Source: Squalus acanthias (Eukaryota). From it: 64,000 nt of DNA. The translations under genes were made by a program, and so were the position numbers. Under the pieces are notes generated by a model that saw only the letters and a program-made list of their open reading frames with translations, was not told the DNA's origin and made no database searches. The number at the start of each line of letters is the position of its first letter. Position 1 is the stretch's first letter. The DNA lies in NCBI GenBank assembly GCA_030390025.1, contig CM059436.1:30380001-30444000 (forward strand), read 5' to 3'. Shown one piece after another: positions 5,585-59,574 of the stretch.

Positions 5585-7308
5585 ACAGTCAGATGGGAGA
5601 ATTTATAATGGGGAATGAGGCAATGGCAGAGAAATTAAATAAATACTTTTTCTGTCTTCAGAGGAAGACAGAAAAAAACTCCCAGAAGTACGAGAAAACC
5701 AAGTGTGGCAAGAATGAGGAACTTAAAGAAATTATTAGTAAAAAAAACACTACTAGCAAAATTAATGGGACTAAAAGTCGATAAATACCAAGGACCGGAT
5801 GACCTACATCCTAGGGTTTTGAAAGAGGTGGCCATTGGGATAGTGGACACATTAGTTGTCATCTTTCAAAATTCCATAGATTCTAGAACGGTTCCTGCAG
5901 ATTGGAGGATAGCAAATGTAACCCTGCTATTTAAGAAAGGAGGGAGAGAGAAAACAGGGAACTACAGACCTGTTAGCCTCATCAGTAGTTGGGAAAATGC
6001 TGGAATCTATTTTAAAGGATGCAATAACTGGGCACTTAGAAACTAATAGTAAGATTGGGCAGAGTCAACATGGATTTATGAAAGGGAAATCCTGTTTGAC
6101 AAACCTATTGGAGTTCTTTGAGGATGTAACTAGTGGAGTAGACAAAGGGGAACCGGTAGATGTGGTGTATTTGGATTTTCAGAAGGCCTTCGATAAGGTC
6201 CCACAAGAGGTTGGTGAACAAAATTAGGGCACATGGCATTGGGGGTAATATACTAGCATGGATTGAGAATTGGTTAACAGACAGAAAACAAAGAGCAAGG
6301 ATAAACGGGTCTTTTTCAGGATGGCAGGCTGTGACTAGGGGGTACCGCAAGGATCGGTGCTTGGGCCCCAGCTATTCACAATCTATATCAATGATTTGGA
6401 TGAGGGGACTAAATGTAACATTTCCAAATTTGCTGATGATACAAAGCTAGGTGTCAGTTGCGAAGAGGATGTGAAGAGGCTTCAAGGGGATCTCGACAGG
6501 CTCAGTGAGTGGGCGAGAACATGGCAGATGGAATATAATGTGGATAAATGTGAAGTTATCCACTTTGGTAGAAAAAACAAAGGCAGAGTATTTCCTAAAT
6601 GGTGAAAGATTGGGGAATGCAGATGCTGAAAGGGACCTGGGTGTCCTTGTACATGAGTTACTGAAAGTGAATGTGCAGGTGCAGCAAGCCATTAGGAAGG
6701 CAAATAGTATGCTGGCCTTCATTACAAGAGGATTTGAGTACAGGAGTAAAGAAGTCTTACTCCAATTATATAGGGCCTTGGTGAGACCACACCTGGAGTA
6801 CTGTGTACAATTTTGGTCTCCTTACCTAAGGAAGGATATACTTGCCATAGAGTGGGTGCAACGACGGTTCACAAGATCGAGTCCTGGGGTGGTGGGACTG
6901 TCGTATAAAGGGATTGAGTAAACTAGGCCTATATTCTCTTGAATTCAGAAGAATGAGAGGGATCTCATTGAAGCATACAAAATTATTACAGGGCTTGATG
7001 GGATGGATGCTGGGAGAATGTTTCCCTTGGCTGGGGAGTCTAGAACGCGAGGCCACAGCCTCCGGCTAAATGGTAGGCCATTTAGGACTGAGATGAGAAG
7101 AAATTTCTTCAGAGGGTGGTGAATCTTTGGAATTCTCTACCCCAGAGGGCTGTGGAGGCTCAGTCATTGGGTATATTCAGAACAGAAGTCAATAGATTTC
7201 TGATATGGCGATAGGGACAGTGGATGGAGTTGAGGTAGAAGATCAGCCATGATCTCATTGAATGGCGGAGCAAGCTCGAATGGCCTACTCCTGCTCCTAT
7301 TTCTTATT
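5585..7308 (+). mobile_element. CR1 (HER1-like) LINE, 5'-truncated, ORF2 frameshifted
   Basis: Consecutive ORF pieces [66 protein letters not shown], followed by a typical CR1 3' tail. Confidence 0.92.
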
Positions 7309-7311
7309 CAT

Positions 7312-9117
7312 TCCCTCCCTCCTTCATCCCCCCCCTTCTCCCTTCTCCCCCCACCCTTCTCTCTCTCTCCCCCCCCCCCCTCTCTCCCCCCCTTCTCTCT
7401 CTCCCCCCCTTCTCTCTCTCTCTCCCCCCTTCTCTCTCTCCCCCCCTTCTCTCTCTCCCCCCCTTCTCTCTCTCCCCCCCTTCTCTCTCTCCCCCCCTTC
7501 TCTCTCTCCCCCCCTTCTCTCTCTCCCCCCCTTCTCTCTCTCCCCCCCTTCTCTCTCTCNNNNNNNNNNNNNNNNNNNNNNNNNNNNNNNNNNNNNNNNN
7601 NNNNNNNNNNNNNNNNNNNNNNNNNNNNNNNNNNNNNNNNNNNNNNNNNNNNNNNNNNNNNNNNNNNNNNNNNNNNNNNNNNNNNNNNNNNNNNNNNNNN
7701 NNNNNNNNNNNNNNNNNNNNNNNNNNNNNNNNNNNNNNNNNNNNNNNNNNNNNNNNNNNNNNNNNNNNNNNNNNNNNNNNNNNNNNNNNNNNNNNNNNNN
7801 NNNNNNNNNNNNNNNNNNNNNNNNNNNNNNNNNNNNNNNNNNNNNNNNNNNNNNNNNNNNNNNNNNNNNNNNNNNNNNNNNNNNNNNNNNNNNNNNNNNN
7901 NNNNNNNNNNNNNNNNNNNNNNNNNNNNNNNNNNNNNNNNNNNNNNCTCTCCCCCCCTTCTTCTCTCTCTCCCCNNNNNNNNNNNNNNNNNNNNNNNNNN
8001 NNNNNNNNNNNNNNNNNNNNNNNNNNNNNNNNNNNNNNNNNNNNNNNNNNNNNNNNNNNNNNNNNNNNNNNNNNNNNNNNNNNNNNNNNNNNNNNNNNNN
8101 NNNNNNNNNNNNNNNNNNNNNNNNNNNNNNNNNNNNNNNNNNNNNNNNNNNNNNNNNNNNNNNNNNNNNNCCTTCTTCTCTCTCTCCCCCCTTCTTCTCT
8201 CTCTCCCCCCCTTCTTCTCTCTCTCCCCCCCTTCTTCTCTCTCTCCCCCCCTTCTTCTCTCTCTCCCCCCCTTCTTCTCTCTCTCCCCCCCTTCTTCTCT
8301 CTCTCCCCCCCTTCTTCTCTCTCTCCCCCCCTTCTTCTCTCTCTCCCCCCCTTCTTCTCTCTCTCCCCCCCTTCTTCTCTCTCTCCCCCCCTTCTTCTCT
8401 CTCTCCCCCCCTTCTTCTCTCTCTCCCCCCCTTCTTCTCTCTCTCCCCCCCTTCTTCTCTCTCTCCCCCCCTTCTTCTCTCTCTCCCCCCCTTCTTCTCT
8501 CTCTCCCCCCCTTCTTCTCTCTCTCCCCCCCTTCTTCTCTCTCTCCCCCCCTTCTTCTCTCTCTCCCCCCCTTCTTCTCTCTCTCCCCCCCTTCTTCTCT
8601 CTCTCCCCCCCTTCTTCTCTCTCTCCCCCCCTTCTTCTCTCTCTCCCCCCCTTCTTCTCTCTCTCCCCCCCTTCTTCTCTCTCTCCCCCCCTTCTTCTCT
8701 CTCTCCCCCCCTTCTTCTCTCTCTCCCCCCCTTCTTCTCTCTCTCCCCCCCTTCTTCTCTCTCTCCCCCCCTTCTTCTCTCTCTCCCCCCCTTCTTCTCT
8801 CTCTCCCCCCCTTCTTCTCTCTCTCCCCCCCTTCTTCTCTCTCTCCCCCCCTTCTTCTCTCTCTCCCCCCCTTCTTCTCTCTCTCCCCCCCTTCTTCTCT
8901 CTCTCCCCCCCTTCTTCTCTCTCTCCCCCCCTTCTTCTCTCTCTCCCCCCCTTCTTCTCTCTCTCCCCCCCTTCTTCTCTCTCTCCCCCCCTTCTTCTCT
9001 CTCTCCCCCCCTTCTTCTCTCTCTCCCCCCCTTCTTCTCTCTCTCCCCCCCTTCTTCTCTCTCTCCCCCCCTTCTCCCCTCCCCCCTCCCCCCTCTTTCT
9101 CCCCCCCCCTCCCCCCG
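7312..9117. repeat. pure pyrimidine minisatellite: 17-bp (TTCTCTCTCTCCCCCCC)n then 20-bp (TTCTTCTCTCTCTCCCCCCC)n, with assembly gaps
   Basis: About 44 perfect 20-mer copies at ~8190-9070; 17-mer copies at ~7420-7559; N runs at 7560-7946 and 7975-8170. Confidence 0.97.
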
Positions 9118-12833: not shown

Positions 12834-12848
12834 ATACGTGTTTAACCT

Positions 12849-14462
12849 ATGGATAAAGTTGGAAAGATGTGGAGCAATTTAAAATACAGATGTCAGAACC
12901 TTTTTGTTAATGAAGGTGGAGGCCGAAGTGAAAATGACTTGAACTATCCGAGCTGTTCTGTTGGTAAAAACTCAAGTGTACATGTTAGTAATCTGCCTCA
13001 GCACGGTTTAAGAAGTCCAGTAAATAGACATGGAGCTATAGCATTGGTTACAGACACGTGTCTAAACACAGACCGAAGAAATGGAAACTGTGTTTCTGAC
13101 ATCCCAGAGATTGTTGAAGCTGATTTAGATAAAGAGAACGAAAATTTGGCTGCTGCACCAGAGTCTCATCTTGTTCGAAGAGACTCTTACTCCCGCCATG
13201 CTCCATGGGGTGGGAAGAAGAAACACTCTTGCTCTACAAAAACGCAAATGTCGTTTGAAACAGATAAACGCTTTAGTAGGACACGGTCTGGGCTACAGAG
13301 ACGGGAAAGACGATATGGTGTAAGTTCCATACATGATATGGATAATTTGTCTAATCGGACTATGACACGGCCGTCTATGCGCCAGCGTTTCCAAGAAACA
13401 GTAGGACTATGTTTTCCATTACGAACACATAATAAACAGTCAAAGAGCTTATTCTCAAGCAGGAGAAAAATTTTACTCTCTGAACTGATGCTTGAAAAAT
13501 GTCCCTTTCCAGCTGGGTCAGACCTAGCCCAGAAATGGCATCTTATTAAGCAACACACTGCTCCTGTGAGCTCGCAGTCAGCTTGCTGGCTTGAGACATT
13601 TGATCCTACTTTTGTTTCGACAGAAGACGAAGAAGATCGACTTCGGGAAAGAAGGCGACTCAGCATTGAAGAAGGGGTTGATCCTCCTCCCAATGCCCTG
13701 ATACACACTTTCGAAGCCACTGCACAAATTAATCAAACATACAAGCTGGGACCAAAGTTAGCACCTGGGATGAGTGAGCTCTCTGGTGACAATCGTGCAA
13801 TGACAAATGGAGACTGGGACTCCGAAGAGGACACAACGACTCTCTGTCTCCAGGCACGCAGGCAGAAACCGCGGCAGGTGCCAGGAGAAAACCTCGGTCA
13901 CTCTGCCAGACCTGGGCCCTGGAAAGTGCACACGCAAATTGATTACATTCATTGCCTGGTGCCAGACTTGCTTCAGATTACAAGTAACCCTTGTTACTGG
14001 GGAGTGATGGACCGTTACGAAGCTGAGGCTCTCCTTGATGGCAAGCCTGAAGGCACCTTTTTACTCAGGGACTCCGCGCAAGAGGACTATCTGTTCTCCG
14101 TGAGCTTCCGCCGTTATAACCGCTCCTTGCACGCCAGGATCGAACAGTGGAATCATAATTTTAGTTTTGATGCCCATGACCCCTGTGTTTTTCACTCCTC
14201 CACAGTAACAGGCCTTCTGGAACATTATAAGGATCCCAGCTCGTGCATGTTTTTTGAACCTTTGCTTACTGTTCCACTGACCAGGACACTTCCTTTCAGC
14301 CTGCAGTACATCTGCCGTGCAGCCATCTGCAGCTGTACAACATATGATGGAATAGATGCACTTCCACTGCCCCCGCCTCTACAAGAGTATCTGAAAGAGT
14401 ACCACTACAAACAGAAAGTAAGGGTGCGATGGTTAGAACGAGAACCAGCAAAGGTCAAATGA
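12849..14462 (+). CDS. SOCS5: Suppressor of cytokine signaling 5 (537 aa; JAK-interaction region, SH2 domain, SOCS box), single coding exon
   Basis: N-terminus [19 protein letters not shown]; [32 protein letters not shown]; SH2 [28 protein letters not shown]; SOCS box [12 protein letters not shown]...[14 protein letters not shown]; C-terminus [14 protein letters not shown]. All match recalled vertebrate SOCS5. Confidence 0.98.
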
Positions 14463-22435: not shown

Positions 22436-24262
22436 AAGAACATAACCAGAAATAGGAGCTAGAGTAGGCCATTTGGCCCTTCGAGCCTGCTCCGCCACTC
22501 AACCAGATCATGGCTGATCTACTTCATCTCCACCTTCCCGCACTATCCCCATATCCCTTAATTCCCTTTGTTCCCAAAAATGTATCGACCTCTGTCTTGA
22601 ATATACTCAACAACTGAGCATCCACAGCTCTCTGGGGTAGCGAATTCCAAAGATTCACAACCCTTTGAGTGAAGAAATTTCTCCTCATTTCAGTCCTGAA
22701 TGGCCTACATCTTATTCTGTGACTGACCCGTGTTCTAGATTCCCCAGCTAGGGGAAACATTTTCCTAGCATTAACGTTGTCAAGCCCCTTAAGAATTTTA
22801 TGTTTCAATTAGATCACCTCTCATTCTTCTAAACTCTAGGGAATATAGGCCTAGTCTACTCAATCTCTCCTCATAGGGCAATCCCCTCATCCCAGGAACT
22901 AGTCTAGTGAACCTTCGCTGCACTCCCTCTAAGGCAAGTATGTTTTTCCTTGGGTAAGGGGACCAGAACTGTACACAGTACTCCAGGTGTGGCCTCACCA
23001 ATACCCTGTATAATTGTAGTAAGACTTCTTTACTCTTATACTCTAATCCCTTTGTAACAAAACCAACATACCATTTGCTTTCCTAATTGCTTGCTGTACC
23101 TGCATGTTAACTTTCTGATTCATGTACAAGGACACCCAGGTCCCTCTGAGTGCAAACATTTCCCAGCCTCTCTCCATTTCAGAAAATATTCTGCTTTTTT
23201 GTTTTTCCTGCCAAAGTGGATAACTTCACACTTCCCTACATTGTATTCCATTTACCATGTTCTTGCCCACTCAGTCAACTTGTCTATATCTCTCTGCAGC
23301 CTCTTTGTATCCTCCTCACAGCTTACTTTCCCACCAAACTTTGTATCATCAGCAAACTTGGATACGTCACTCAGTCCCTTCATCTAAGTCATCAATATAG
23401 ATTGTAAATAGCTGAGGCTCAAGCACTGATCCTTGCGGTACCCTGCTAGTTACAGCCTGCCAACCTGAAAAAGTCCTGTTTATTCCTACTGTTTTCTGTC
23501 CATTAACCAATCCTCAATCCATGCTAATATATTACCCCTAATACCATGAGTCCTAATTTTGTGTAATAACCTCTTGTGTGGCACCTTTATTGAATGCTTT
23601 TTGAAAATCCAAATACACTACATCCACTGGTTCCCCCCCCCCCCCCCCCTCTTATCCATCCTGCTAGCTACATCTTCAAAAAACTACAGATTTGTCAAAC
23701 ACAATTTCCCTTTCATAAAACCATGTTGACTCTGCCTAATCATATTAGGATTTTCTAGATTCTAGCATTTTGCCTACCACTGATGTCAGGCTAACTGGCC
23801 TTTTTTTCTCTTCCTCCTTTCTTAAATAGCGGTAGAATGTTTGCTACCTTCCAATCCTTGGGGGCTGTTCTAGAATCTAGGGAATTCTGGAAGATTAATA
23901 CTAGTGCATCCACTATCTCTGCAGCTACCTCTTTTTTTTTTAATACCCTAGGATGCAGGTCGTCCGGTCCAGCGGATTTGCCGCCACTTAGTCCCATTAA
24001 TTTCTCCAGCACTATGTCTTTACTTATACTGATTTCTTTAAGTTCCTCATTCTCTCTAGACCCTTGGTTCCCCATTATTTCCAGAATGTTTTTTGTGTAT
24101 CTTCTACTGTGAATACAGATACAAAGTATTTGTTTAATGTCTCTGCTATTTCCTTTATTGCCAATTATAATTTCTCTTGTCTTTGCCTCTAATGTGCCCA
24201 CGTTTACTTTCACTAATCTCTTCCTATTTACATACCTATAGAAACGTTTGCAATCTGGCTCT
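22436..24262 (-). mobile_element. CR1 (HER1-like) LINE, 5'-truncated
   Basis: Minus-strand ORFs [25 protein letters not shown] and RRNFFTQRVVNLWNSLPQ; reverse-complemented tail at 22436-22520. Confidence 0.92.
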
Positions 24263-25283: not shown

Positions 25284-25957
25284 CTGACTAATTGAATTTT
25301 TTTTGATGAAGTAACAGAGAAGGTTGATTAAGGGAATGCAGTGGATGTTTTCTATATGGATGTTAAAGCGTTTGACAAAGTACCACATAAAAGGCTGGTT
25401 AACAAAGTTGAGGCTCGTGGAATAGGCAGGTCAGTGTCAGCTTGGATAAGGAATTGGCTTAAGGACAGAAAACAGCGAGTTGTGGTAAATGGTTGTTTTT
25501 CAGGCTGGAGGATGGTAGACAGTGGTGTTCCCCAAGGGTCAGTGTTAGGACCACTGCTTTTTTATATATGTAAATGACTGATATTGGAATACAGAGTACA
25601 ATTTCAAAATTTGCCAATGACACCAATCTTGGAGGTGTGGCAAACAGTGAGGATGATACCAATCAACTGCAACAGGACATAGATAGGCTAGCAGAATGGG
25701 CAGACAAGTGGCAGATGGAATTTAATAGAGAAGTGTGAGGTGATGCATTTTGGCAGAAGGGATAGGGAGAGGCAATATGGCACAATTCTAAACCGTGTGC
25801 AGGGACAGAGGGACCTGGGCGTTCATGTGCATAGATCTTTGAAAGTGGCAGGACATATCGAGAGAGTAGTTAGCAAAGCATATGGGATCTTGGGCTTCAT
25901 AAATAGATGTGAGAAGTCGCACAAAACCAGGTTATAGTCCAACAGTTTTATTTGAAA

Positions 25958-25994
25958 TCACAAGCTTTCGGAGCGCTGCTTCTTCGTCAAGTGA
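25958..25994 (-). ncRNA. minimal hammerhead ribozyme, mutated copy (left PLE arm)
   Basis: Reverse strand reads UCAC-UUGACGA-A-GAAGC-AGC-GCUCC-GAAAGCUU-GUGA: a C3U core change and one stem II mismatch relative to the right copy. Confidence 0.65.
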
Positions 25995-27266
25995 AGTGAA
26001 GAGATGTATATCGGCACAGCATATATAGTCAGAGAACACTGCCAGACGATTACAGTTAATCTTTCTAACTGCCCTTCATCGCACCTTGGCAGAGAGACAA
26101 TCACTGCAATCAAAGGCGTGAATGGTGTTCAAACAGGTCAGTCAGGAAAACATTACATCAAAGACAATGTGGCAGATGCTGGGGTCTGTATGGAAAACAC
26201 ACAACTTTTTTTGCTGGAAATCACAGCAGGTCCGGCCACATCGGTGTAGAGAGAACAAGCCAACGACGACTCGAGTCTGGATGACTCTACGTCAGGTGGG
26301 GCTACATATAAGCGTGACATGAACCCAAGATCCTGGTTGAGGCCGTCCTCATGGGTGCGGAACTTGGCCATCAGTTTCTGCTAGACAATTTTGCGTTGTG
26401 TGTCTCGAAGGCCGCCTTGGAGAACGCTTACCCGAAGATCGGAGGCTGAATGTCCTTGACTGCTGAAGTGTTCCCCTACTGGGAGGGAACACTCCTGCCT
26501 GGCGATTGTTGCGCGGTGTCCGTTCATACATTGTCGCAGTGTCTGCATGGTCTCGCCGATGTACCATGCTCCGGGCATCCTTTCCTGCAACGTATGAGGT
26601 AGACAACGTTGGCAGAGGTACATGGTACATACTCATGTGACTCGGCCAACATCGTCTACCTCATACGTTGCAGGAAAGGATGCCCGGAGCATGGTACATC
26701 GGCGAGACCATGCAGACACTGCGACAACGTATGAACGGACACCGTGCAACAATCGCCAGGCAGGAGTGTTCCCTCCCAGTCGGGGAACACTTCAGCAGTC
26801 AAGGACATTCAGCCTCCGATCTTCGGGTAAGCGTTCTCCAAGGCGGCCTTCGAGACACACGACAACGCAAAATTGTCTAGCAGAAACTGATGGCCAAGTT
26901 CCGCACCCATGAGGACGGCCTCAACCAGGATCTTGGGTTCATGTCACGCTTATATGTAGCCCCACCTGACGTAGAGTCATCCAGACTCAAGTCGTCGTTG
27001 GCTTGTTCTCTCTACACCGATGTGGCCGGACCTGCTGTGATTTCCAGCAAAAAAAGTTTTGTGTTTTCCATACAGACCCCAGCATCTGCCACATTGTCTT
27101 TGATGTAATGTTTTCCTGACTGACCTGTTTGAACACCATTCACGCCTTTGATTGCCGTGATTGTCTCTCTGCCGAGGTGTGATGAAGGGCAGTTAGAAAG
27201 ATTAACTGTAATCGTCTGCCAGTGTTCTCTGACTATATATGCTGTGCCGATATACATCTCTTCACT

Positions 27267-27303
27267 TCACCTGACGAAGGAGCAGCGCTCCGAAAGCTTG
27301 TGA
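27267..27303 (+). ncRNA. minimal type I hammerhead ribozyme in the PLE pLTR
   Basis: UCAC-CUGACGA-A-GGAGC-AGC-GCUCC-GAAA-GCUU-GUGA: intact CUGANGA/GAAA core, 4-bp stem I, 5-bp stem II and palindromic AGCU stem III. AATAAA follows at 27309-27314. Confidence 0.8.
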
Positions 27304-28338
27304 TTTCAAATAAAACTGTTGGACTATAACCTGGTGTTGTGCGACTTCTCGCATTTGTCCACCCCAGTCCAACACCGGCATCTCTACATCATTTATAAAT
27401 GGAGGTATTGAGTACAAAAGCAGGGAAGTTATGCTGAACCTTTATAAAGCTGTGGTTAGGCCACAACTAGAGTACTGAGTCCAGTTCTGGTCACTACACT
27501 TTAGGAAGGATGTGAAGGTCCTTGAGAGGGTGCAGAGGAGATTTACCAGAATGGTTCCAGGGATGAGGTATTTTAGCTACAAGGTTAGGTTGGAGAAGCT
27601 GGGGTTGTTTTCCTTGGAGCAAAGGAGGTTGAGGGGAGACTTGATAGAGGTGTACAAGATTATGCCTGGTTTGGATAAGGTAGACGGAGAAAGGTTGTTC
27701 CTATTAGCTGATGGTACAAGGACTAGGACACAGATTTAAGGTTTTGGGCAAGAGATACAGGGGGCATGTGAGGAAAAACTTTTTTTTACACAGCGAGTGG
27801 TAATGACCTGGAACTCGCTGCCGACGATGGCGGTGGAAGCAGAGATGATCAATGATTTCAAAAGGAAATTGGATAGGCACTTGAAGGAAATAAACATGCA
27901 GGGCTACGGGGATAGAGCAGGGGAATGGGACTGACTGGAATGCTCTACGGAGAGCTGGCATGGACTCAATGGGCTGAATGGCCTCCTTCTGTGCCGTAAT
28001 GACTCTATGACTGCACCTCAAAAGTGCTTAATTGACTGAAGCCTTTTGGGCTGTCCTGTGGTTGTGAAAAGCACTATACAAATGCAGATTCTTTCTCTGC
28101 TTCTAGGGACCCTTCCTTCTTCCACATAATGTGGAATATGTAATTGTTTCTCAAGCTCAGTATCTTATGATCGAGGAATTCCAACCTCCATTCCAGACAA
28201 ATTCCTTATACCCAGCCTTCTCACTTTGGGCTCTCAACACAATTCAAAAGATACAGCAGTGTGAAAGTTATACTAGTAATGCTTTATTGTTCACACAGAC
28301 CAGTTCTTGAACATGCCAATGAGCAAAGGCAGGAACTT

Positions 28339-35109: not shown

Positions 35110-35401
35110 GATGCTTCACTTGTCTAGAACCAGGGGTCACAGTCTCGGAATAAAGGGTACTGAGATGAGAAATTTCTTCACTCAGAGGATGGTTAATCTT
35201 TGGAATTTTCTACCCCAGATGGCTGTGGAGGCTCAGTCATTGAGTATATTCAAGATCGATAGATTTTTGGATATTAAGGGAATCAAGGGATATGAGGATA
35301 GTGCAGGAAAGTGGAGATGAGGTAGATCAGCCATGATCTTATTGAATGGCGGAGCAGGCTCGAGGGGCCAAATGGCCTACTCCAGCTCCTATTTCTTATG
35401 T
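35110..35401 (+). mobile_element. CR1/HER1 3' fragment
   Basis: RNFFTQRMVNLWNFLPQ plus the canonical tail. Confidence 0.85.
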
Positions 35402-35792
35402 CTCAGCACCCTCTATCTTCTTTGGACATAAATAGGGTGATTCTGAAGTCCATTTGTAGAGTTTCCCCCCCCCCCCCGGAAGATTATTTGAGTTTTACTT
35501 GATTCAGAAAATTAGCCTACCTGAGTTGTATCCACTGTTTTGCATTCCAGCATGTTACATCAGAGTGGCAGGACATACCTCACAGAAACCAGGGTTTTGA
35601 CAAAGAAGGGCACGTGATCTAACTTTCAATATAGTTTTGTAACCTGTATTTATTATTGGTAAATCTTTAGTTCACAGATCTGTTCCCCTTTTTTTAATTT
35701 TCAAAAATAATAATGACCTCCTGAAAAAGCTATTAAAATTTGGTTTGGTTTTGAGAGCCTAACTTTTTAATTCTATCAACTTGATGTATCTT

Positions 35793-36395
35793 AAGAAATT
35801 AGGACATAGGAACAGGAGTAGGCCATTTAGCCCCTTGTGTCTGTTCTGCTGTTCAATGAGATCATGGCTGATCTGTGACCTAACTCCATATACTTGCCCC
35901 ATATCCCTTATAACCTTTGGTTAACAAAAATCTATCAATCTCAGATTTAAAGTTAACAATTGACCCCACATCAACTGCCATTTGCGGAAGAGTTCCAAAC
36001 TTCTACCACCGTTTGTGTGTAGAAGTGTTTCCTGAAAGGCCTGGCTCTAACATTTAGGCTATGTCCTAGTCCTAGACTCCCCAACTAGCGGAAAAAGTTC
36101 TCTCTATCTGCTCTATCTGTTCCCTTAATATCTTGAAAACTTCGATCAAATCGCCCCTTAACCTTTTAAATTCCAGGGAATCAAACCCTAGCTTATGTAA
36201 TCTCTCATTGTAATTTAACCCTTGAAGTCCAACTATCATTTTGGAAAATCTATGCTGCACTCCCGCCAAGGCCAATATATATTTCCTAAGGTGTGGTGCT
36301 CCGAACTGAACACAGTACTCCAGGTGTGGTCTAACTAGGGCTTTGTACAGCTGTAGCATAACTTCTACCCCCTTGTATTCTAGTCCTCCAGATAT
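35793..36395 (-). mobile_element. CR1 3' fragment
   Basis: Minus [22 protein letters not shown]...RLRGDLIEVFKIL plus the reverse-complemented tail. Confidence 0.88.
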
Positions 36396-36964
36396 ACACA
36401 GACGTTGTCAGCTGACAGCTGAGCATAGTGGCAGGGTTATCAGTCACAGAACAACGCCAATGTGCAACGTCTGTGGCTTATAGCTCTACTGAGCCACTTT
36501 ACAGCCAGGGAAGTAAGTGCTGAAAAATAAATATACATGTTTTGCCAATCTGTTTTATAAATAGAATACACAAGGAGGTAGGAGATCTATGGTTTGTATA
36601 GAATAAAGGGCACTTGTCATGATTGATATAACTGGCTCGTTTGTGTTGTATGCAGTATGTTGCCATTGCCATTTTATTTTCTGTGGTATCAATCTCTGTG
36701 TATCATCTATGTACACTGAGATATTCATACCAGGGAAAGCATTATGGTGTAGGGAGGATCCCTGAATCCATCAGTAAGATTGATGTCTTAGAAAATAGCT
36801 GAGGAAAACTTTGACTCAATCGCAATGTTTTTGAAGAATGTAAATTATACAGTGCAGCATTAAGTATCCAGATTGACTTAGCAAGTCTGCTGCTAATGTC
36901 AGGTTATACCGGGTCAGATGGTGTGGTCATCTGCAGCAAATACTTAATGAGCAACTTTTGCAGT

Positions 36965-38800: not shown

Positions 38801-39910
38801 GTACATAACCACTTGTGTTCATCATTCAACTTCCTATAGCTGATGATATAGTGACATCTCCTTTATTAAATGGAGTACTGAATACACAAGAAGTTCATGA
38901 TGTTTGATTAAAATTAACCAAGTTTAAAATTTCACTTGAACGGTACTGGAGGGCAGTTGGTACCTTTCATAAACTTTAGATAATGTGGCAAACAACAATT
39001 GGCATTCACACACAACCTGTGACACTGCAGGGAATTCTCCTGTGCACATTGTATGTATACTATATAACGCAAGCACAAGTTGGTACTGTATTACATGTTT
39101 TGTCTACAAATTTTGGCAGATATGGGGAGGAGGGCATAATTTTTTTTTAGAAATAAGAGCAGTACAAGTAAGTTGTGGAACAACAACAAATGCTAAAATT
39201 AGCTAAGGTGAAGAGAATGGAGATGAGACGAAGAGCAGAGAGCGAATAACATTGAAACAGAGTCCGATGCAATGTAACAGAGATCAAGGAACAGACATTT
39301 CAGAAAACACCCAAAGAACAGAGCCAGGTTGAAAGAGGCATTAAATTTCCATTGAGGTTCTCAAGCTTGTCTGTTGTAATTTTGGTGGAAATCTGTGGCA
39401 GCTCTGGAGAAGCCATGAGGGTGAATTTCTGCAGGGGTCTCCTGGTCATCCACCACAATTAGAAGGAATAAAAAGGAATATGAAAAATGTAGGAGGTTTG
39501 GCAAAGTGAGGAGGACGATAAAAGACTTCAGGAAAACATACAAGTTAGCAGAACGGGCAGACAGGTGGCCGAGCCAATTTAATGCTCATATGTTTGAGGT
39601 AATGTATTTTGGGAGGGAAGAAAGGAACCAGGAATGGGAGTACACACTTAATAGTAAGGCATGGAAGGGTGTAGATGAACAGAAAGACCTTGAGGGTTCA
39701 AATACATAATTCCCTGAAAGTCAGAGCACAAGTAGATAAAGCTATTTAAAAAAGCCCAATGGCATTTTGGGTTTTATAAATAGAGGTATAGAGTATAAGG
39801 CTAAAGAAATAATTAAATTTATGCAAGCCTTTGGTTAGGCTGCAGTTAAAGTACTGTGTGGACTTTTGGGCACTTTATTATAGAAAGGACATTAAAACCA
39901 TAGAAAGTGT

Positions 39911-45542: not shown

Positions 45543-45782
45543 TGTGGCGGATCGCCACCTAAAACGGGCATAATCCACTCTTCCGTCTGTGGACAAATTT
45601 CCAGCACCTTCCCTTTATGGCACCTTACCTTTAAGGCAGGAGGGGGGCGGGGCCTCAGGTTTTACCCAGAGAATTCTGGGAGCTTTTCGGTTCTGCCATT
45701 TTGTGCCATGCTGTGATTAAAAAGTCTCTTGTTTAACACAAATGGATTCAGCCTTAATTCGTGTTTCGCGGCAGCCTCAACA
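45543..45782 (+). repeat. 5' LTR (240 bp)
   Basis: TGTGGCGG...CCTCAACA; differs from the 3' LTR by one substitution and one 1-bp indel in a G run. Confidence 0.96.
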
Positions 45783-45783
45783 T

Positions 45784-45797
45784 TGGTGACCCCGACG
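45784..45797 (+). promoter_or_regulatory. primer-binding site complementary to the tRNA-Trp 3' end
   Basis: TGGTGACCCCGACG is the first 14 nt of the tRNA-Trp PBS TGGTGACCCCGACGTGAT. Confidence 0.9.
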
Positions 45798-45822
45798 CTC
45801 AGGACGTATTCCGAGCACTGCA

Positions 45823-48800
45823 ATGGCGGACACGAACGCAGTTTCCGTGAAACTGCCGGAGTTTTGGGAAAACCAGCCCGAAGTCTGGTTTCTCCAAGCT
45901 GAATCTCGCTTCCGGCTGCAAAATATCACCGCAGATGGGACGAAGTACGACTATCTCGTCACATCACTCGGTAGCACTGCAGTTTCCAAGGTTTGGACAA
46001 CGCTGCAGAACCCACCAGAGGAAGGCAAGTATGCACATCTTAGGACAGCGCTCCTTAAAAAATTTACGGCCTCGGCATATCAGCGAAACTGCCACCTCCT
46101 CGACCTTCTAGGCCTCGGTGATGCCTCACCGTCAGACCTCCTCTCCCACATGCTCTCCCTCACCGACGAGAGCCCACCCGGATCCCTCTTCCGCATGCTG
46201 TTCATCCGCCAGCTCCCTCTCAGCATCCGCCCAGCGATCGTGGCGTCCGGCCTCACGAACCTGGAAGCCCTGGCCGATGAGGCCGACAAGCGGCTGTCCG
46301 CTCACTCCAGCCGCGACGTCACTCCGGACCTGGCAGCCAATGCCTGGGCGTGTCCCTCACCGGCCAGCACGCAGCCACAAGGGCCTGTCACCAGGCCCAC
46401 GGGGCCTTCACGCCCCACTAACCCGGGCCACTGTTACTACCACGCACGGTTCGGCGCCAGGGCACAACGGTGCACACCTCCCTGCTCTTTCAAGTCCGCC
46501 CCCGCGATGGCCATGGGCCACGCGGGCTCCCTGCTGTTCGTCACGGATGACAAAACCGGCCGCCGGTTCCTGTGCGACACTGGGGCTCAGCACAGCATCA
46601 TCCCGGCCTCCTCCCTCGACATCCAAAAGGGCGAACGAGGACCGGCGCTGGCTGCTGCTAACGGCTTGGAAATCCGGACGTATGGCACCCGGACAGTCAC
46701 CCTCGACCTCGCTGGTCACCGCTACCGATGGGAGGTCATCACTGCCAAGGTGCTCTCCCCCCTCATCGGCGCAGATTTCCTGTGCGCCCACGGCCTACTG
46801 GTAGACATCCCTCGTCACCGCCTCGTGGACATGAACACCATGTCCCCTATCCTGGGCGCCATGGCTCCCCGTCAACCCGCCGACATGGCGTCACAGTGCC
46901 ACGCCCGGGCCACGGATGACTACTCAGCACTCCTGGCCGAATTCCCGGCCCTTACCAATCCGATCTTCTCCGCGGAGGCCGCCAAACACGGGGTGGAACA
47001 CTTCATCCCCACCACAGGCCCCCCAGTGTACGCCCACGCCCGCAGGCTGGACCCGGCCAAACTGGAGATCGCGCGGACCGAGTTTGCCACCATGGAACAG
47101 CTCAGCATCATCCGCCGCTCCAACAGTCCCTGGGCCTCCCCACTCCACATCGCCCCCAAACCAGGCGGAGGTTGGCGCCCCTGCGGGGATTACCGCCGCC
47201 TCAATGACGCCACCACCCCTGATCGGTACCCCGTGCCGCACATTCAGGACTTCTCGGCTAGACTGGCCGGCCGCTCAGTCTTTTCCAAGGTCGGCCTGGT
47301 GCGCGGCTACCACCAAGTCCCCGTCCACCCCGCAGACGTCCCCAAGACGGCCGTAATCACCCCCTTCGGCCTGTTCGAGTTCCTGCGGATGCCCTTCGGC
47401 CTCAAAAACGCAGCCCAGGCATTCCAACAGCTCGTGGACTCGGTCCTTCGGGACCTGAAGTTCCTGTTCGTCTACCTGGACGACATCCTGGTAGCCAGTT
47501 CCTCCAAGCAGGAACACCTCGAACACCTTCGCATCCAGTTCGGGCGCTTCAGCGACCACGGGCTCATCCTCAGCCCAGCCAAATGCCAGTTCGGCCTGGA
47601 CAAGATCGACTTCCTCGGCCACCACATCACCCATGCTGGGGCCATTCCCCTGCCCACCAAGGTGCAGGCCATCCAACAATTTCCCCGCCCCACCACCATC
47701 AAAGGCCTCCAGGAGTTCCTCGGGATGGTGAATTTCTATAACCGCTTCATCCCCAAAGCGGCGTCCCTCATGAGGCCCCTGTATGAAGCCCTCCGGGGCA
47801 GGAGCGGCAAGATGGCGGTCGAATAGACGGCAGACGCGTCTGCCGCCTTCGATTCCACCAAGACCGCGCTCGCCAATGCCACCCTGCTCGCGCACCCACG
47901 GCCCAATGCCAGGGTAGCGCTCACCACGGACGCCTCCGACCACGCGGTCGGCGCTGTGTATGAGCAGTGGGTCGACGGCGCCTGGCAACCACTTGCCTTC
48001 TTCAGCCGCCAACTATGCCCCCCGGAGGTCAAGTACAGCACCTTCGACCGCGAGCTCCTCGCGCTGTTCCTGGCGGTCCGCCATTTCCGGTTTTTGCTTG
48101 AGGGCCACCCCTTCACTGCATTTGTCGACCACAAGCTCTGACATTCGCAATGGCAAAGACAACCGACCCCTGGTCCGCCAGGCAGCAGCGCCAGCTCGCG
48201 GCAGTGTCCGAGTTCACCACGGACATCCAACACGTCTCCGGTCGAGACAATGTGGTAGCCCACTGCCTCTCCCGCCCCGCCATCCACGCTGCACACCTAG
48301 CAGTTGACTACGCTCAACTCGCAGCAGACCAGATCACCGACCCTGACCTGCTCTCCGCACCCACCAACCTACCAGGGCTACGCCTGGCCGACGTCCGACG
48401 TCGCCTGTGGCCCGACCGCTGTCACGGTCAAGTGCGACATATCCCTATGTCAACCTCGGCCCGTAGTCCCAGCGTCCTGGTGCCGCCGGGTATTTGACGT
48501 TCTCCACAACCTCTCCCACCCCGGCACCCGCGCATCCATCAAATTGGTAGCCAACCGCTTCGTCTGGTGAGGCCTTCGCAAGGATGTGCGTACTTGGGCC
48601 AACTCCTGCCTAGCCTGCCAACGGCTAAGGTACAGCAACACACGAAAGCACCCCTCGAGGAGTTTACCGTCCCCTCGCGGAGATTCGACCACATCCACGT
48701 GGACATCGTCGGGCCCCTGCCGCCGTCGCAAGGCCACACGCACTTGCTGACCATCGTTGACCGCACCACACGCTGGCCTGAGGCAATTCCACTGACCTCT

Positions 48801-49628
48801 ACCACCACCGCCGACATCGCCAGAGCCTTCGTCAGCACCTGGGTCGCACGGTTCGGCGTCCCCTCCGACATGACGTCGGACAGAGGTCCGCAATTTACCT
48901 CTGAACTCTGGACCGCCGTTGCACGCAATCTCGGGGTGACCATTCACCGCACCACAGCGTACCACCCCCAAGCCAACGGACTGTGTGAGCGGTTCCACAG
49001 ATCCTTGAAGGCATCTCTTCGAGCCAGCCTCCAAGACGGCACCTAGACCGACCGACTTCCGTGGGTCCTCCTCGGCCTGCGCACCGCGGTTAAAGAAGAC
49101 CTCCACGCATTGGCAGCAGAGCTCGTGTACGGTCAGCCGCTGCGCGTACCCGGCGAGGTCCTGCCCACCGCCACGACACCCTGGTCAGCCGACCAGCAAC
49201 GCCACGACTTCGTCTCACCGACGCTGCAGTTCGCCCCGGTGCCCATTGCCCGACACGGCGAATCCACCTCACACGTCCCACTAAGCCTGCACCAGGCACG
49301 GTTTGTTTTCGTCCGGCATGACGCCCACCGCGGACCCCTTCAACCCCCGTACGATGGGCCCTACAAGGTGCTACAGGCTGGGGACAAATTTTTCACCCTG
49401 CAAGTGGGCGACAGGACCGAAAAAGTGTCGGTTGACCGACTCAAGCCAGCACACTCGGAGCCCGGTGAGCAGGTCCCTGTAGCTCGTCCACCTCCACGCG
49501 GCCGACCTGCCCTCAAGCCGGTTCACCCGGCTGCTCCACGCCCGGCTGTTCCACGTCCACCGGCGTCCTACAAGAGCCGCTCCGGCCGGCCCATCAGACC
49601 GCCGCACCGTCTCGTCCACACCTCCTAA
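45823..49628 (+). pseudogene. gag-pol polyprotein, disrupted
   Basis: Open 45823-47826 (gag, protease LCDTGA, RT YLDD). RNase H (TDASD, YSTFDRELLA) and integrase (HVDIVGP, SDRGPQFTS, ERFHRSLK, GPY) follow in broken frames. Stops at 47824, 48568 and 49044; frameshifts near 48138, ~48400 and ~48620. Confidence 0.93.
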
Positions 49629-49637
49629 GCGGATTCT

Positions 49638-49645
49638 GGGGGGAG
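49638..49645 (+). promoter_or_regulatory. polypurine tract
   Basis: GGGGGGAG ending 3 nt before the 3' LTR. Confidence 0.8.
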
Positions 49646-49648
49646 CTG

Positions 49649-49887
49649 TGTGGCGGATCGCCACCTAAAACGGGCATAATCCACTCTTCCGTCTGTGGAC
49701 AAATTTCCAGCACCTTCCCTTTAAGGCACCTTACCTTTAAGGCAGGAGGGGGCGGGGCCTCAGGTTTTACCCAGAGAATTCTGGGAGCTTTTCGGTTCTG
49801 CCATTTTGTGCCATGCTGTGATTAAAAAGTCTCTTGTTTAACACAAATGGATTCAGCCTTAATTCGTGTTTCGCGGCAGCCTCAACA
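49649..49887 (+). repeat. 3' LTR (239 bp)
   Basis: Near-identical direct repeat of 45543-45782. Confidence 0.96.
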
Positions 49888-52194
49888 GTGTCCTATAAAG
49901 GGACTTTCTCCCTGACCATGTCAGTTTCATTGAAGGTTCCCACTCAAATGTTAACCCACCTTTTCAGATGTTATCTAGCCTGTATATTTCTAGCTTTTTT
50001 TTTGTTTTTATTATTAGCATCTTAAGCCCAAGTTTAGACGTCAGCCGTGAACTTATTTCCACCCACCTAGCAGTTATTAGATGAGGGGTCTGTTTTTTGG
50101 TTAGTTTTGGTGAAGTACATCTTAATACAGGGCCAACTATCCATGGGCTCGTGGTCTTGATAAGCAGTGATGTTCACTTAAGAGGTCACTTGCCTGCCAC
50201 ATCATCTTAGCAAGTCTATGGGCAATTGAGTCCAGTATATATTAGTGATGGTAGTGGATGTTTTAAATGAATTACGAGACAGTAATCTAATCGAGGTGTA
50301 CAGATGATGTCATTCACTGCAAGAGGAAAGCACAAGCAGTTTATAACAGTCATCTGAACCCACAGATTGGGTTACTGTCTCAGATTCACTGACTGGAATC
50401 ATGTATTATTTATAATATTTAGTTAAAAGATAAGTTGGGTACAAGGGAGAGGACTTTCAGTGTAAAGTATCCTCCCAAATGAGGAAAGTTACTTAAAAAA
50501 AAAATCATCTTTATAGTAGCCATCATTGCAGAGAGTATTTTAAATTCAGTGAACTTCCTGTTCATAACACTGTCATTTCAAGACAATAGAGTCACAACAG
50601 GGCTGCTCTATTGATATCAACTACTTGATAAATGGTTCCCTAAGGAGCAATGCAGATGGTCTTGGAAGCTACTCAGAGGGTATGCTGCAGACTGCAGTAC
50701 TGGCCAAGTATTGCTACATAGACCTTGCCAGCGGGAGCCAGAAATGGAGCCGGTCCCAGATGGAGCCTGTAGCTGACATCAGCTGAGCAAACTCCCTGGA
50801 GAGCTTGGAGATCCTGTATGGTGGGATCCAAGGAGGAGAGAGCATACAGAATTAAAAATAAAATAGGACACTATATTGACAACGTGCATACTTGACTAAA
50901 TATGGCGGAAACAACACCTACTAGAGACTGCAGATAGGTTAGAAATCCATCTCAAACCATCTGTTCTTGATTTGATATATACAGAATAAAGTCAATTTGA
51001 CTTTTTTCTTTTATTGAGATGCTGAATATGAATATTTGAGAAGCAGATCATGCATGTGATGGAGGCATTGATGAGCTCTGGAAAGTAAATGACAACAGGC
51101 AATGCAAATGATTTTTTTTCAAAGCATACAAGAATATAAGTATGCTGCTATTAGATTTAATAATGCAATACATAGTTACATAATATTAAAGCTTATGTTA
51201 AGTCAATAGTCGTTTTAGTGAAAAGATCTCCCAGGGGTGAAATGAGACTTTGTGCACAATGTGATCAAATGCAAATGAATGTTTTTTTGCCTTTTTTTTT
51301 TATATGCTTGCAGGATGCAGCGCTACTCTGCATGCTTTCAGATGTGTTAAGGTGCAGTTTGGGGGGAAAAAAAAACACACAACTGAGTTGACAGTTGGAA
51401 AGCACCAGCAAGATTCCTGCTCAACTAGCAGAATACCACTTAACCAGTATATAGCACCAGTGGGTGATTGTTGGCACACAGGCAGCACTGTCTTGGGCTG
51501 CCATACTCTGACAGCACAGGTACCTCTGACAACTCACTGCTGCCATTGTGATGGAATTTTGATGAGCTATTCCCACTTCAAATGTCGCGTCTCCTATGGT
51601 TGTAGCTGCAGCCCTGTGGTTTTCTGCCTCTTCAGAGACTTCTCACTCTTTAGGCCACAGATCACAATGCCCTCTGCACTTTATTATCGCCACTCCTGAA
51701 TGTACAATGATAGCAGTGAAAAGCCCGGGGCCCTAAAATCCACAAGCTGTGATCCCGGCAGTTGCACTGGGTTCGTGTCCAATGGCAGAAAGTGGGAGGG
51801 CACTTCATTTGCACAGCACAAGCAGACAGGTGCTCGCACCAGTGCGAACGCATCTCAGGCACCCAGCAGCCCTGCACTACCGGGAAATTCCAGTGTCCAC
51901 CTGGGGGTGGGGCTACGAGTCTTTTCTCTCCCACCCCCCCCCCCACCCCCCCACCCCACAAACCCAGATAAATCTTTTTATGGCATACTTACAAAAGAGG
52001 CCAATGCCAACATTTTTTTGAAGATAAAAGTCTCCCCCATCTTTGTATGTCCAAGCCAATAGCCTGGAGCCCCCGGTGAGGCCCAACTTGTGCCCTTGTG
52101 GAGACCGATATGCCCCATCTCACTGAGCATACCAACTTCCAGACATTCATTCAGGTCTCATATGGGCTGGGGTAGCAGGAACTGCCAGCGTAGT

Positions 52195-52674: not shown

Positions 52675-53280
52675 TAACGTATATTTATATAGCGCTTTTA
52701 ACGTAATAAGACGTCCCAAGGTGCTTTACCGGAGCATTATCAAAAAAATGTTTTTGACACCGAGCCATATAAGGAGACGTTAGGGCAGATGACTGAAAGC
52801 TTGGTCAAAGAGGCAGATTTTAAGGAGCATCTTGCAGGAGGAAAGAGAAATGAGAAGGCAGCGAGATTTAGGGAGGGAATTCCAGAGCTTAGGACCTAGG
52901 CATCAGAATCACAGAATCCCAGAATCCCAGAGTGCAGATAGAGGCCATTTCGGCCCATCGAGCCTGCACCGACATATATCCCACCCTATCCCCGTAACCC
53001 CACGTATTTAATCCCCCTAACACTAAGGGTCAATTTATCATAGCCAAATCAACCTAACCCACACATCTTTGGACTGTGGGAGGAAACCGGAGCACCCGGA
53101 GGAAACCCACGCAGACACGGGGAGAATGTGCAAACTCCACACAGACAGTCACCGGATTCGAACCTGGGTCCCTGGCGCTGTGAGGCAACAGTGCTAACCA
53201 CTATGCCACCGTGCTGCCCCAGCTGAAGGCACGGCCACCAATGGTGGAGGAATTAAAATCGGATGTTCAAAAGGCCAGGA
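52675..53280 (-). mobile_element. L2 LINE 3' fragment interrupted by an HE1 SINE
   Basis: Aligns with 39911-40170; breaks at GGACCTAGGCA and resumes at CAGCTGAAGGCACGGCC. Confidence 0.8.
52903..53219 (-). mobile_element. HE1-like V-SINE (tRNA head, V domain, CR1 tail)
   Basis: Minus strand has A-box TGGCATAGTGG, B-box GGTTCGAATCC, V-domain TGTGTGGAGTTTGCACATTCTCCCCGTGTCTGCGTGGGTTTCCTCCGGGTGCTCCGGTTTCCTCCCACAGTCC, and a tail with GGATTCTG repeats. Confidence 0.9.
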
Positions 53281-59143: not shown

Positions 59144-59574
59144 ACATAGAAACATAGAATCTAGGAGCAGGAGTAGGCCATTCGGCCCGTCGAGCCTGCT
59201 CCACCATTCAATACGATCATGGCTGATCATCCAAATCCAGTACCCTGTCCCCTGCTTTAATCCCCACAGTACACATATCCCACCCTACCCCCGTAACCCC
59301 ACGTATTTAATTCCCCCTAACATATCCCATCCTATCCCCATAACCCCACATATTTAATCCCCCCCTAACACTAAGGGTCAATTTATCATAGCCAAATCAA
59401 CCTAACCTGCACATTTTTGGACTGTGGGAGGAAACCGGAGCACCCGGAGGAAACCCACGCAGACACGGGGAGAATGTGCAAACTCCACACAGACAGTCAC
59501 CCGAGGTCAGATTCGAACCCGGGTCCCTGGCGCTGTGAAACACCAGTGCTAACCACTATGCCACCGTGTTGCCC
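59144..59574 (-). mobile_element. HE1-like V-SINE with internal 47-bp duplication and HER1-type tail
   Basis: Same head and V domain as the 52903 copy; tandem copies at 59274-59320 and 59321-59368; 3' end matches the CR1 tail GATCAGCCATGATC...GGCCTACTCCTGCTCCT. Confidence 0.88.

What the first reader, a model, noticed from the sequence alone, without database searches (positions are those of the whole stretch)
25896..27403. 1.48-kb Penelope palindrome: both arms share the same frameshift and stop, and only one carries the 37-nt tail
Seen: two ~710-bp inverted arms with a ~23-nt spacer (26618-26640), differing only by scattered substitutions and a 3-nt indel. Both arms have the same 1-nt frameshift inside the GIY-YIG motif (CRKGCP/AWYIGET) and the same TAG (KIV*QKL). 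Only the right arm has the extension 27355-27391. A 12-bp imperfect TSD flanks the whole unit, pointing to one insertion event. Known: PLEs encode a GIY-YIG nuclease, often insert with an inverted 5'-truncated copy, and have an optional short 3' tail. Inference: both arms were copied from one already defective template, by fold-back or template switching, and mobilised in trans. Arm divergence would date the insertion, and any transcript across it would fold into ~700 bp of dsRNA, a potential endo-siRNA source against the family.
Basis: partly seen in the sequence, partly recalled or inferred. Interest (0 to 1): 0.75.

Follow-up and report, generated by a model that had tools for sequence, protein, structure and literature searches.

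The report
Dead Penelope-like retrotransposon inverted double insertion
A broken jumping gene of the Penelope-like class was inserted as two mirror-image copies in a single event into another dead repeat in a shark-like genome; this is a well-described arrangement for the class, useful as a clean fossil of how it copies itself but not a new kind of element.

Summary
The palindrome is real: arms 25907-26617 (-) and 26641-27354 (+), 16 substitutions and one 3-nt gap in 714 columns, 11 of 16 at CpG, so genomic and aged, not a read artefact. Both arms share the frameshift, the stop and a third lesion; only the right arm has the 37-nt tail; a 9-12-bp duplication of a LINE host flanks the unit. It is the 3' end of a shark Penelope-like element, probably Neptune-type (closest named relative 93%). 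Corrections: the 'spacer' is in-frame endonuclease sequence holding an in-register inner stem, and each arm carries a minimal hammerhead motif, the left one damaged. Best reading: one insertion in trans from an already defective RNA, both target ends primed at the two start sites that bound the tail and joined at the hairpin; fold-back of one cDNA is a close rival. Inverted copy, one-sided tail, junction palindromes and siRNAs from inverted copies are all published for this class; 4 of 27 testable relatives show similar junctions. Transcription is unshown. New member of a known kind; interest 0.25.

The parts
25284..25907 (+). Host LINE (CR1-type; that label is recalled), reverse-transcriptase 3' region, left of the insertion; decayed
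   Evidence: RVT_1 at 25332-25574, E 1.1e-10; tblastn to avian RT-domain proteins; CpG o/e 0.25
25896..25907 (+). Left copy of the target-site duplication (12 bp; or 9 bp, 25899-25907)
   Evidence: host frame continues across the site when one copy is discounted
25907..26617 (-). Left arm: inverted 5'-truncated copy, no tail, lacks one codon, 7 private CpG losses
25958..25994 (-). Damaged mirror copy of the minimal hammerhead (core C3 position changed at 25990, helix II mismatch at 25981)
26616..26642 (+). Head-to-head junction: 5' end of the right arm with an inner imperfect stem in register with the palindrome (7 of 9 pairs, 9-nt loop 26625-26633)
26618..26959 (+). 3' part of the GIY-YIG endonuclease coding region, broken at 26683-26688 (frameshift), 26878-26880 (stop) and 26950-26951 (extra base)
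26641..27354 (+). Right arm, paired part; 4 private CpG losses
26960..27354 (+). 3' non-coding region / pseudo-LTR
   Evidence: downstream of the family stop position; conserved in a catshark record through the ribozyme and tail (P0033)
27267..27303 (+). Minimal type I hammerhead motif: helix I 4 bp, both core boxes, one bulged base, helix II 5 bp, palindromic helix III, predicted cut after 27299
   Evidence: only descriptor hit in the window, 3 hits in 200 simulated windows; helices I and II form in the fold; not found by Rfam
27300..27395 (+). Stem-loop in which the tail pairs back on the pseudo-LTR; the left arm ends at the 3' foot of its apical hairpin
   Evidence: -23.2 kcal/mol, z -2.8, 2 of 200 shuffles as stable
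27355..27391 (+). 37-nt tail, right arm only, 68% A+C
   Evidence: two relatives end at about the same point (P0013, P0033)
27392..27403 (+). Right copy of the target-site duplication (12 bp with 2 mismatches; or three junction bases plus 9 bp with 1 mismatch)
27404..27900 (+). Host LINE, continuation right of the insertion
   Evidence: CpG o/e 0.29

Best explanation
This is a dead-on-arrival insertion of a shark Penelope-like retroelement (probably Neptune-type) into an older LINE. An RNA from a copy whose endonuclease gene already carried three lesions was picked up in trans by intact RT-endonuclease protein (inferred). The enzyme nicked both strands of an AT-rich target 9-12 nt apart (duplication shown; cut inferred). 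Both 3' ends primed reverse transcription: the right end at the distal start site, giving the tail, the left end at the proximal site 37 nt further 5', giving no tail (ends shown; priming inferred from the anole element). The two cDNAs stopped within about 25 nt of each other in the endonuclease region and were joined by pairing at a short hairpin encoded in the template (hairpin shown; its use inferred). The arms were then near-identical and have since drifted apart by 2.25%, mostly by CpG decay (shown). The unit encodes no working protein and most likely does nothing; it would make long double-stranded RNA only if read through.
For: Single event: host LINE protein continues across the site with an offset of exactly one residue in 111 of 111 alignment pairs from 85 of 120 proteins once 12 nt are discounted (frame check). 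One defective template: three lesions and two residue changes shared by both arms and absent from relatives (Ile in 31 of 32, Met in 0; Arg in 24 of 29, Gln in 0), 0 of 201 relatives end at the stop. Birth as a pair: CpG losses split 7 left / 4 right and differences are evenly spread (longest identical run 129, null mean 137, P 0.52); arms keep CpG o/e 0.76-0.83 against 0.25-0.29 in the host LINE. Two start sites: PMC11167929 reports that the anole enzyme cleaves and extends both strands, starts at two sites that bound the tail, and starts 111-118 nt into an ORF whose ribozyme cut lies at +26, i.e. 85-92 nt after the cut (subtraction mine); here the tail ends 92-93 nt after the predicted cut. 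Relatives show antisense-to-sense junctions with unequal ends, offsets of about 330, 570 and -60 nt for P0005, P0013 and P0059 (4 of 27 testable proteins, shuffle P 0.003-0.007), as two separately truncated cDNAs would give. Junction stem: 34 of 16,932 position pairs in the arm (0.2%) reach 7 of 9 pairs.
Against: The sequence cannot separate two primed cDNAs from one folded-back cDNA; ends only about 25 nt apart and automatically shared lesions are simpler under fold-back, and PMC3846280 reads junction palindromes as self-priming. The junction stem is weak: 4.8% of end positions have some register as good, and 24% of 27-mers fold as stably as DNA (-2.6 kcal/mol). The proximal boundary (27354) was not shown to be family-wide; one relative (P0033) and one inverted relative (P0013) support only the distal end. 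The frameshift sits in a C run that slipped independently in P0025, so it alone is weak evidence. The duplication mismatches exceed expectation. The anole data are from the Poseidon clade; this family looks Neptune-type. The junctions in relatives are read from predicted proteins only, without their DNA.
Confidence: 0.45

Rival explanations
1. Same single insertion in trans, but the second arm was made by fold-back: one cDNA primed at the right end snapped back on the hairpin at 26616-26642 and was copied on itself, and the product was resolved at the tail boundary by the endonuclease or by priming from the left target end.
For: Truncation points about 25 nt apart and an in-register 7-of-9 stem; all template lesions shared by construction; self-priming proposed in PMC3846280 and endonuclease resolution of the tail in PMC8557442; P0059 shows another near-symmetric junction.
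Against: Needs a second reason for stopping exactly one tail-length short; relatives with offsets of 330 and 570 nt would need very large loops; the DNA hairpin is only -2.6 kcal/mol.
Confidence: 0.35
2. The lesions mark a non-autonomous subfamily that spread in trans; the two arms may come from two different RNAs of that subfamily, so sharing says nothing about one template.
For: High CpG retention with three lesions in 340 nt suits a lineage passed through repeated retrotransposition better than a long-dead copy; non-autonomous Penelope-like derivatives are described (PMC8557442; preprint 10.64898/2026.07.22.740005).
Against: No fetched relative carries the stop (0 of 201) and only 1 an equivalent frameshift, with an intact Glu and a different sequence; these are predicted proteins, mostly of other species, and biased towards open frames, so the test is weak.
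Confidence: 0.1
3. The insertion is older than the arms suggest: lesions arose after insertion in one arm and were copied to the other by gene conversion or replication template switching across the palindrome.
For: The duplication, which lies outside the arms, has 2 mismatches in 12 (P 0.004-0.029); lesion density in the element (3 in 0.34 kb) is not lower than in the host LINE (several stops and frameshifts in 1.1 kb); the stop arose in a CpG context like three private transversions.
Against: Differences are uniform along the arms, which needs one whole-arm event; CpG o/e of the arms is three times that of the host, though the starting values of the two families are unknown; the mismatches are explained by a 9-bp duplication plus junction bases.
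Confidence: 0.07
4. The palindrome is a sequencing or assembly artefact (fold-back read).
For: Inverted Penelope-like structures trouble assemblies (PMC8557442); the window has two N gaps elsewhere.
Against: 8 of 10 transitions between the arms are CpG transitions against 2.7 expected (P 0.00075), in both arms; a target duplication and a continuous host frame flank the unit; the flanks are not mirrored.
Confidence: 0.01

Closest known systems
Inverted-repeat insertions of endonuclease-containing Penelope-like elements, e.g. Pen2a_Av and Pen2 derivative of Adineta vaga (PMC3846280; passages and Discussion seen) and the general scheme in PMC8557442 (passages)
   Same: Inverted 5'-truncated copy adjacent to the direct copy, 30-40-nt tail at one end only, 9-10-bp target duplication around the whole unit, defective ORF, palindrome at the junction, insertion into a LINE, mobilisation in trans.
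   Different: Here both copies are truncated inside the endonuclease region and are almost equal in length, giving a 1.45-kb near-perfect palindrome; shared private lesions were not described in the passages seen.
Poseidon element of Anolis carolinensis, PAc (PMC11167929; parts 1-2 of 4 of the text read; supplementary PDFs gave only figure letters)
   Same: Hammerhead motif upstream of an AC-rich stem-loop; tail as the stretch between two start sites; distance from ribozyme cut to distal end 85-92 nt there, 92-93 nt here; AT-rich target.
   Different: Different clade by the linker motif; in PAc the ORF starts inside the ribozyme, which could not be shown here; no activity data for the shark family.
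Shark Penelope-like ORFs: Heptranchias perlo P0019 (93% over 96% of the query), Scyliorhinus torazame P0021 (90%)
   Same: Same family at the protein level; same C-terminal end.
   Different: They are open across all three broken sites; P0019 retains the RT domain and the linker zinc-finger motif that this copy has lost by truncation.
Minimal type I hammerheads of Penelope-like elements (PMC4209133; parts 1-2 of 4 read)
   Same: Short helix I, bulge before helix II, G10.1-C11.1 pair, palindromic helix III; the paper also notes pairs of motifs on opposite strands 100-700 bp apart.
   Different: No tandem partner on the same strand, the mirror copy is damaged, and the two motifs are about 1.3 kb apart.
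Twin priming in L1 5' inversions (recalled, not read; search listed 3 papers, none on Penelope-like twin priming by title or abstract start)
   Same: Both target ends prime, cDNAs joined by microhomology, duplication around the unit.
   Different: In L1 the inverted part is a different, upstream stretch of the RNA; here the same 3' stretch is present twice.
siRNA-producing inverted Penelope copies in Drosophila (PMC3681739; passages)
   Same: Long inverted repeat able to form double-stranded RNA.
   Different: There siRNAs were mapped to the inverted regions; here no transcript or small RNA is known.

Membership tests
Penelope-like elements, endonuclease-containing | C-terminal GIY-YIG endonuclease with two cysteines inside the motif (CCHH type) | tested here: met
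   Motif present but frameshifted; 93% to a shark RT-endonuclease ORF; Pfam GIY-YIG weak on the fragment (E 0.056) and above cut-off in relative P0004
Penelope-like elements, endonuclease-containing | RT domain in the same ORF | tested here: inconclusive
   Absent from this 5'-truncated copy; present with the DKG motif in closest relative P0019
Penelope-like elements, endonuclease-containing | Pseudo-LTR with hammerhead motif | tested here: met
   27267-27303; 1 hit in the window, 3 in 200 simulated windows; Rfam does not report it
Penelope-like elements, endonuclease-containing | Optional 30-40-nt tail at one end | tested here: met
   37 nt, right arm only; similar distal end in P0013 and P0033
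Penelope-like elements, endonuclease-containing | Inverted 5'-truncated copy, head to head, with target duplication round the unit | tested here: met
Neptune/Nematis clades | CX2-5CxxC motif in the RT-endonuclease linker | tested here: inconclusive
   Region lost from this copy; present in 23 of 32 relatives long enough to show it, including P0019; definition from PMC8557442
Neptune/Nematis clades | RT phylogeny with named reference elements | not testable with these tools
   No named reference set was available and this copy has no RT
Penelope/Poseidon clade in the strict sense | Absence of the linker zinc-finger motif | tested here: not met
   Closest relatives carry the motif, so 'Penelope' holds only in the wide sense
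Minimal type I hammerhead ribozyme | Core boxes, bulge, G10.1-C11.1, palindromic helix III, helix I | tested here: met
   Right arm; left arm fails at C3
Minimal type I hammerhead ribozyme | Second copy on the same strand for dimeric cleavage | tested here: not met
   One hit per 64 kb, none tandem
Minimal type I hammerhead ribozyme | Self-cleavage | not testable with these tools
   Needs an assay
L1-type twin-primed 5' inversion | Inverted segment is a non-overlapping upstream part of the element (recalled) | tested here: not met
   The same 711-nt stretch is duplicated
Hairpin-RNA / endo-siRNA locus | Capacity to form long duplex RNA | tested here: met
   706-707 pairs, 8-9 helices of 21 bp or more, about -1450 kcal/mol
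Hairpin-RNA / endo-siRNA locus | Transcription across both arms and small-RNA production | not testable with these tools
   No expression data; no host exon found around it
MicroRNA precursor | Match to a curated family at its gathering score | tested here: not met
   Best 57.5 bits against a threshold of 90, a generic hairpin match at the apex; 0 hits at gathering

The most novel reading that the evidence does not exclude
The locus is a complete fossil of an undescribed step in Penelope-like replication: a dimeric enzyme primes both target ends on one RNA, one at each of the two start sites that bound the tail, and seals the two cDNAs at a hairpin encoded in the template. Because the arms share private lesions, shark genomes may hold many such self-dated palindromes that would let the origin of the class's inverted structures, described as undefined in PMC8557442, be tested by counting ends, offsets and junction hairpins.
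Probability: 0.3. Interest if true: 0.55.

Novelty: new member of a known kind. Interest (0 to 1): 0.25.

Why it matters
As a single locus it matters little: it is one dead copy in a configuration that is standard for Penelope-like elements. Its value is as an unusually readable example. Target duplication, both start-site ends, ribozyme, junction hairpin and shared lesions are all intact, so it constrains how the inverted form arises (one template, made at insertion) and suggests a simple genome-wide test of two competing mechanisms. It also shows a 1.45-kb near-perfect palindrome persisting in a vertebrate genome for a long time: the non-CpG divergence (5 of 631) equals about 2-13 million generations at the epaulette-shark rate of 7e-10, a rough figure borrowed from another species.

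Tried and rejected
Other nucleotide copies of the family: none in the window, none by a 24-nt pattern in bacterial and archaeal genomes, none in phage records; so lesion frequency, the proximal tail boundary and the junction position in the source genome stayed unchecked. The exact-sequence cluster look-up could not be made, and viral and metagenome contig collections stayed unchecked. Rfam found no ribozyme; its microRNA matches at the apex are below threshold and rejected. Host gene around the unit: 237 of 317 open frames of 55 residues or more were scanned against Pfam; only RVT_1 passed a curated cut-off or came near it, four other weak matches were below cut-off; short exons would be missed. 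Bacterial promoter scan and tRNA scan were uninformative. Lesion density against the host LINE did not discriminate insertion-time from later lesions. Where the family ORF starts relative to the tail could not be found. In the search for inverted junctions among relatives 39 of 66 proteins had no non-family N-terminal part and were not testable, and in P0062 about 35 unexplained residues lie between the antisense match and the sense part. Literature searches for a description of this shark family or its palindromes listed none by title or abstract start; most listed papers were not opened, subscription papers are not in the library, and a supplementary sequence file and figure legends of PMC11167929 could not be read, which may bear on the exact start-site positions. 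PMC6431247 (passages) added nothing. No structure prediction was run: the fragment is broken and its family is clear.
Full report
Observation. The palindrome is in the sequence as described. The arms are 25907-26617 on the minus strand and 26641-27354 on the plus strand. They differ by 16 substitutions in 711 paired columns (2.25%) and one 3-nt gap, which the left arm lost. Both arms change frame inside the GIY-YIG motif (26683-26688 and mirror) and both have TAG (26878-26880 and mirror) where 35 of 37 matching relatives have Glu. A third shared lesion, an extra base at 26950-26951, displaces the family stop position. The 37-nt stretch 27355-27391 is on the right only. A 12-bp imperfect duplication flanks the unit.

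Not an artefact. Eleven of the 16 substitutions fall in the 80 CpG columns and 5 in the other 631; 8 of 10 transitions are CpG transitions against 2.7 expected (P 0.00075), 7 CpG losses in the left arm and 4 in the right. That is the pattern of two methylated genomic copies ageing side by side. The flanks are two halves of one LINE reverse-transcriptase region: the frame continues across the empty site, and 85 of 120 related proteins hit both sides, with all 111 alignment pairs adjacent once 12 nt are discounted. The hits are avian RT-domain proteins; the name CR1 is recalled.

Identity. The coding part matches shark proteins: 93% to a Heptranchias perlo RT-endonuclease ORF and 90% to one of Scyliorhinus torazame. 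The species of the window was not determined. The closest relatives carry the CX2-5CxxC linker motif (23 of 32 long enough) that PMC8557442 gives for Neptune and Nematis and not for Penelope/Poseidon (passages), so the family is probably Neptune-type; this copy has lost that region. Among 201 fetched relatives, 83 cross the frameshift site in frame, one (P0025) has an equivalent frameshift with an otherwise different sequence, and none ends at the stop. These are predicted proteins biased to open frames, so this does not exclude a defective subfamily in the source genome; no nucleotide copies were reachable (could not be made).

The 'spacer' is the 5' end of the right arm, in frame with the endonuclease and matching relatives. 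It holds an inner stem in the register of the palindrome, 7 of 9 pairs, reached by 34 of 16,932 position pairs in the arm; but 4.8% of end positions have some register as good and the DNA hairpin is weak. A minimal hammerhead motif lies at 27267-27303 with the features listed in PMC4209133 (parts 1-2 of 4 read); it is the only descriptor hit in the window against 3 in 200 simulated windows, its fold is not more stable than shuffles (z -0.74) and Rfam does not report it. The left copy has a changed core C3 position. Downstream, 27300-27395 folds into a stem-loop (z -2.8) in which the tail pairs back, and the left arm ends at the foot of its apical hairpin. The tail ends 92-93 nt after the predicted cut; in the anole element reverse transcription starts 85-92 nt after the cut and the tail is the stretch between two start sites (PMC11167929; subtraction mine).

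Relatives show the same habit. Of 66 relatives from the first two searches, 27 had a non-family N-terminal part; in 4 of these it matches the antisense strand of the arm (shuffle P 0.003-0.007). P0013 has the antisense tail, ending at the same codon as here, joined to sense endonuclease about 570 nt away; P0005 has an offset of about 330 nt; P0059 is near-symmetric; P0062 is less clear. P0033 leaves the element at about the same distal end. Their DNA was not seen.

Mechanism. Shown: one target duplication, one broken template sequence in both arms, two different 3' ends one tail apart, two 5' ends about 25 nt apart at a hairpin, even divergence since. Inferred: mobilisation in trans, staggered nicks, and the way the second arm was made. 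I favour priming from both target ends at the two start sites with joining at the hairpin (0.45), because the anole enzyme extends both strands and the left end falls one tail-length short, and because offsets in relatives vary widely. Fold-back of one cDNA is nearly as good (0.35) and is the published reading of junction palindromes (PMC3846280). A defective subfamily with two templates (0.10) and later conversion between arms (0.07) remain. The main result against the simple picture is the duplication: 2 mismatches in 12 bp have P 0.029 at the arm rate and 0.004 at the non-CpG rate. A 9-bp duplication with one mismatch plus three junction bases removes most of that. Against conversion, differences are evenly spread (P 0.52) and the arms keep CpG o/e 0.76-0.83 against 0.25-0.29 in the host, although the families' starting values are unknown; lesion density did not discriminate.

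Age and function. Non-CpG divergence of 0.79% (CI 0.26-1.84%) is about 2-13 million generations at the rate in PMC10587355 (passages), a rough figure. A transcript across the unit would fold into about 706 pairs, but none is known: the nearest coding region is a SOCS-family gene ending at 14462, 11.4 kb upstream on the plus strand, and 237 of 317 open frames scanned showed no other host domain. siRNAs from inverted Penelope copies are already reported in Drosophila (PMC3681739, passages).

Comparison and verdict. An inverted 5'-truncated copy, a one-sided 30-40-nt tail, a 9-10-bp duplication round the unit, defective ORFs, junction palindromes, insertion into a LINE and mobilisation in trans are all described for this class (PMC8557442; PMC3846280), as are opposite-strand ribozyme pairs. 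Searches listed no paper on this shark family's palindromes or on two-end priming in Penelope-like elements, judged by titles and abstract starts; a preprint notes Penelope-like elements and retrozymes in one cartilaginous fish (passages). The finding is a new member of a known kind. Interest 0.25; the boldest open reading, a readable fossil of two-end priming that makes the origin of the inverted form testable, has probability 0.3 and would deserve 0.55.

Noticed in passing
window 12846-14462 (+): Single-exon-like open frame of 538 residues with SOCS, SH2 and SOCS-box domains; resembles SOCS4/5 (label recalled).
   Followed up: partly
window 45543-49890 (+): LTR retrotransposon with 243/242-nt LTRs differing by two substitutions and one gap, protease-like, RT and integrase domains in the order recalled for Gypsy; broken into several frames; CpG o/e 0.89.
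   Followed up: partly
window 7312-9116: CT-rich satellite, 20-bp unit in 47 copies at 98% (8171-9110), beside two N gaps (7560-7946, 7975-8170).
   Followed up: no
window 5597-7304 and 22448-24176: Two LINE 3' regions in opposite orientation, 75% identical over 1.8 kb, on either side of the SOCS gene; further fragments near 35164-36400, 39486-39889.
   Followed up: no
window 25981-25990 (-): Two of the five non-CpG differences between the arms fall within 10 nt inside the left hammerhead copy; small numbers, probably chance.
   Followed up: partly
window 26105, 26477, 26614: All three CpG transversions between the arms are in the left arm, and the shared stop also lies in a CpG context.
   Followed up: no
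proteins P0020, P0029, P0032, P0033, P0043, P0052, P0055, P0056, P0059 and others: Many annotated shark host-gene isoforms contain pieces of this element's endonuclease, pseudo-LTR or inverted junction; exonisation or annotation error, not resolved.
   Followed up: partly
window 52976-53219 and 59322-59574: A 250-bp dispersed repeat pair at 92% identity, unclassified.
   Followed up: no
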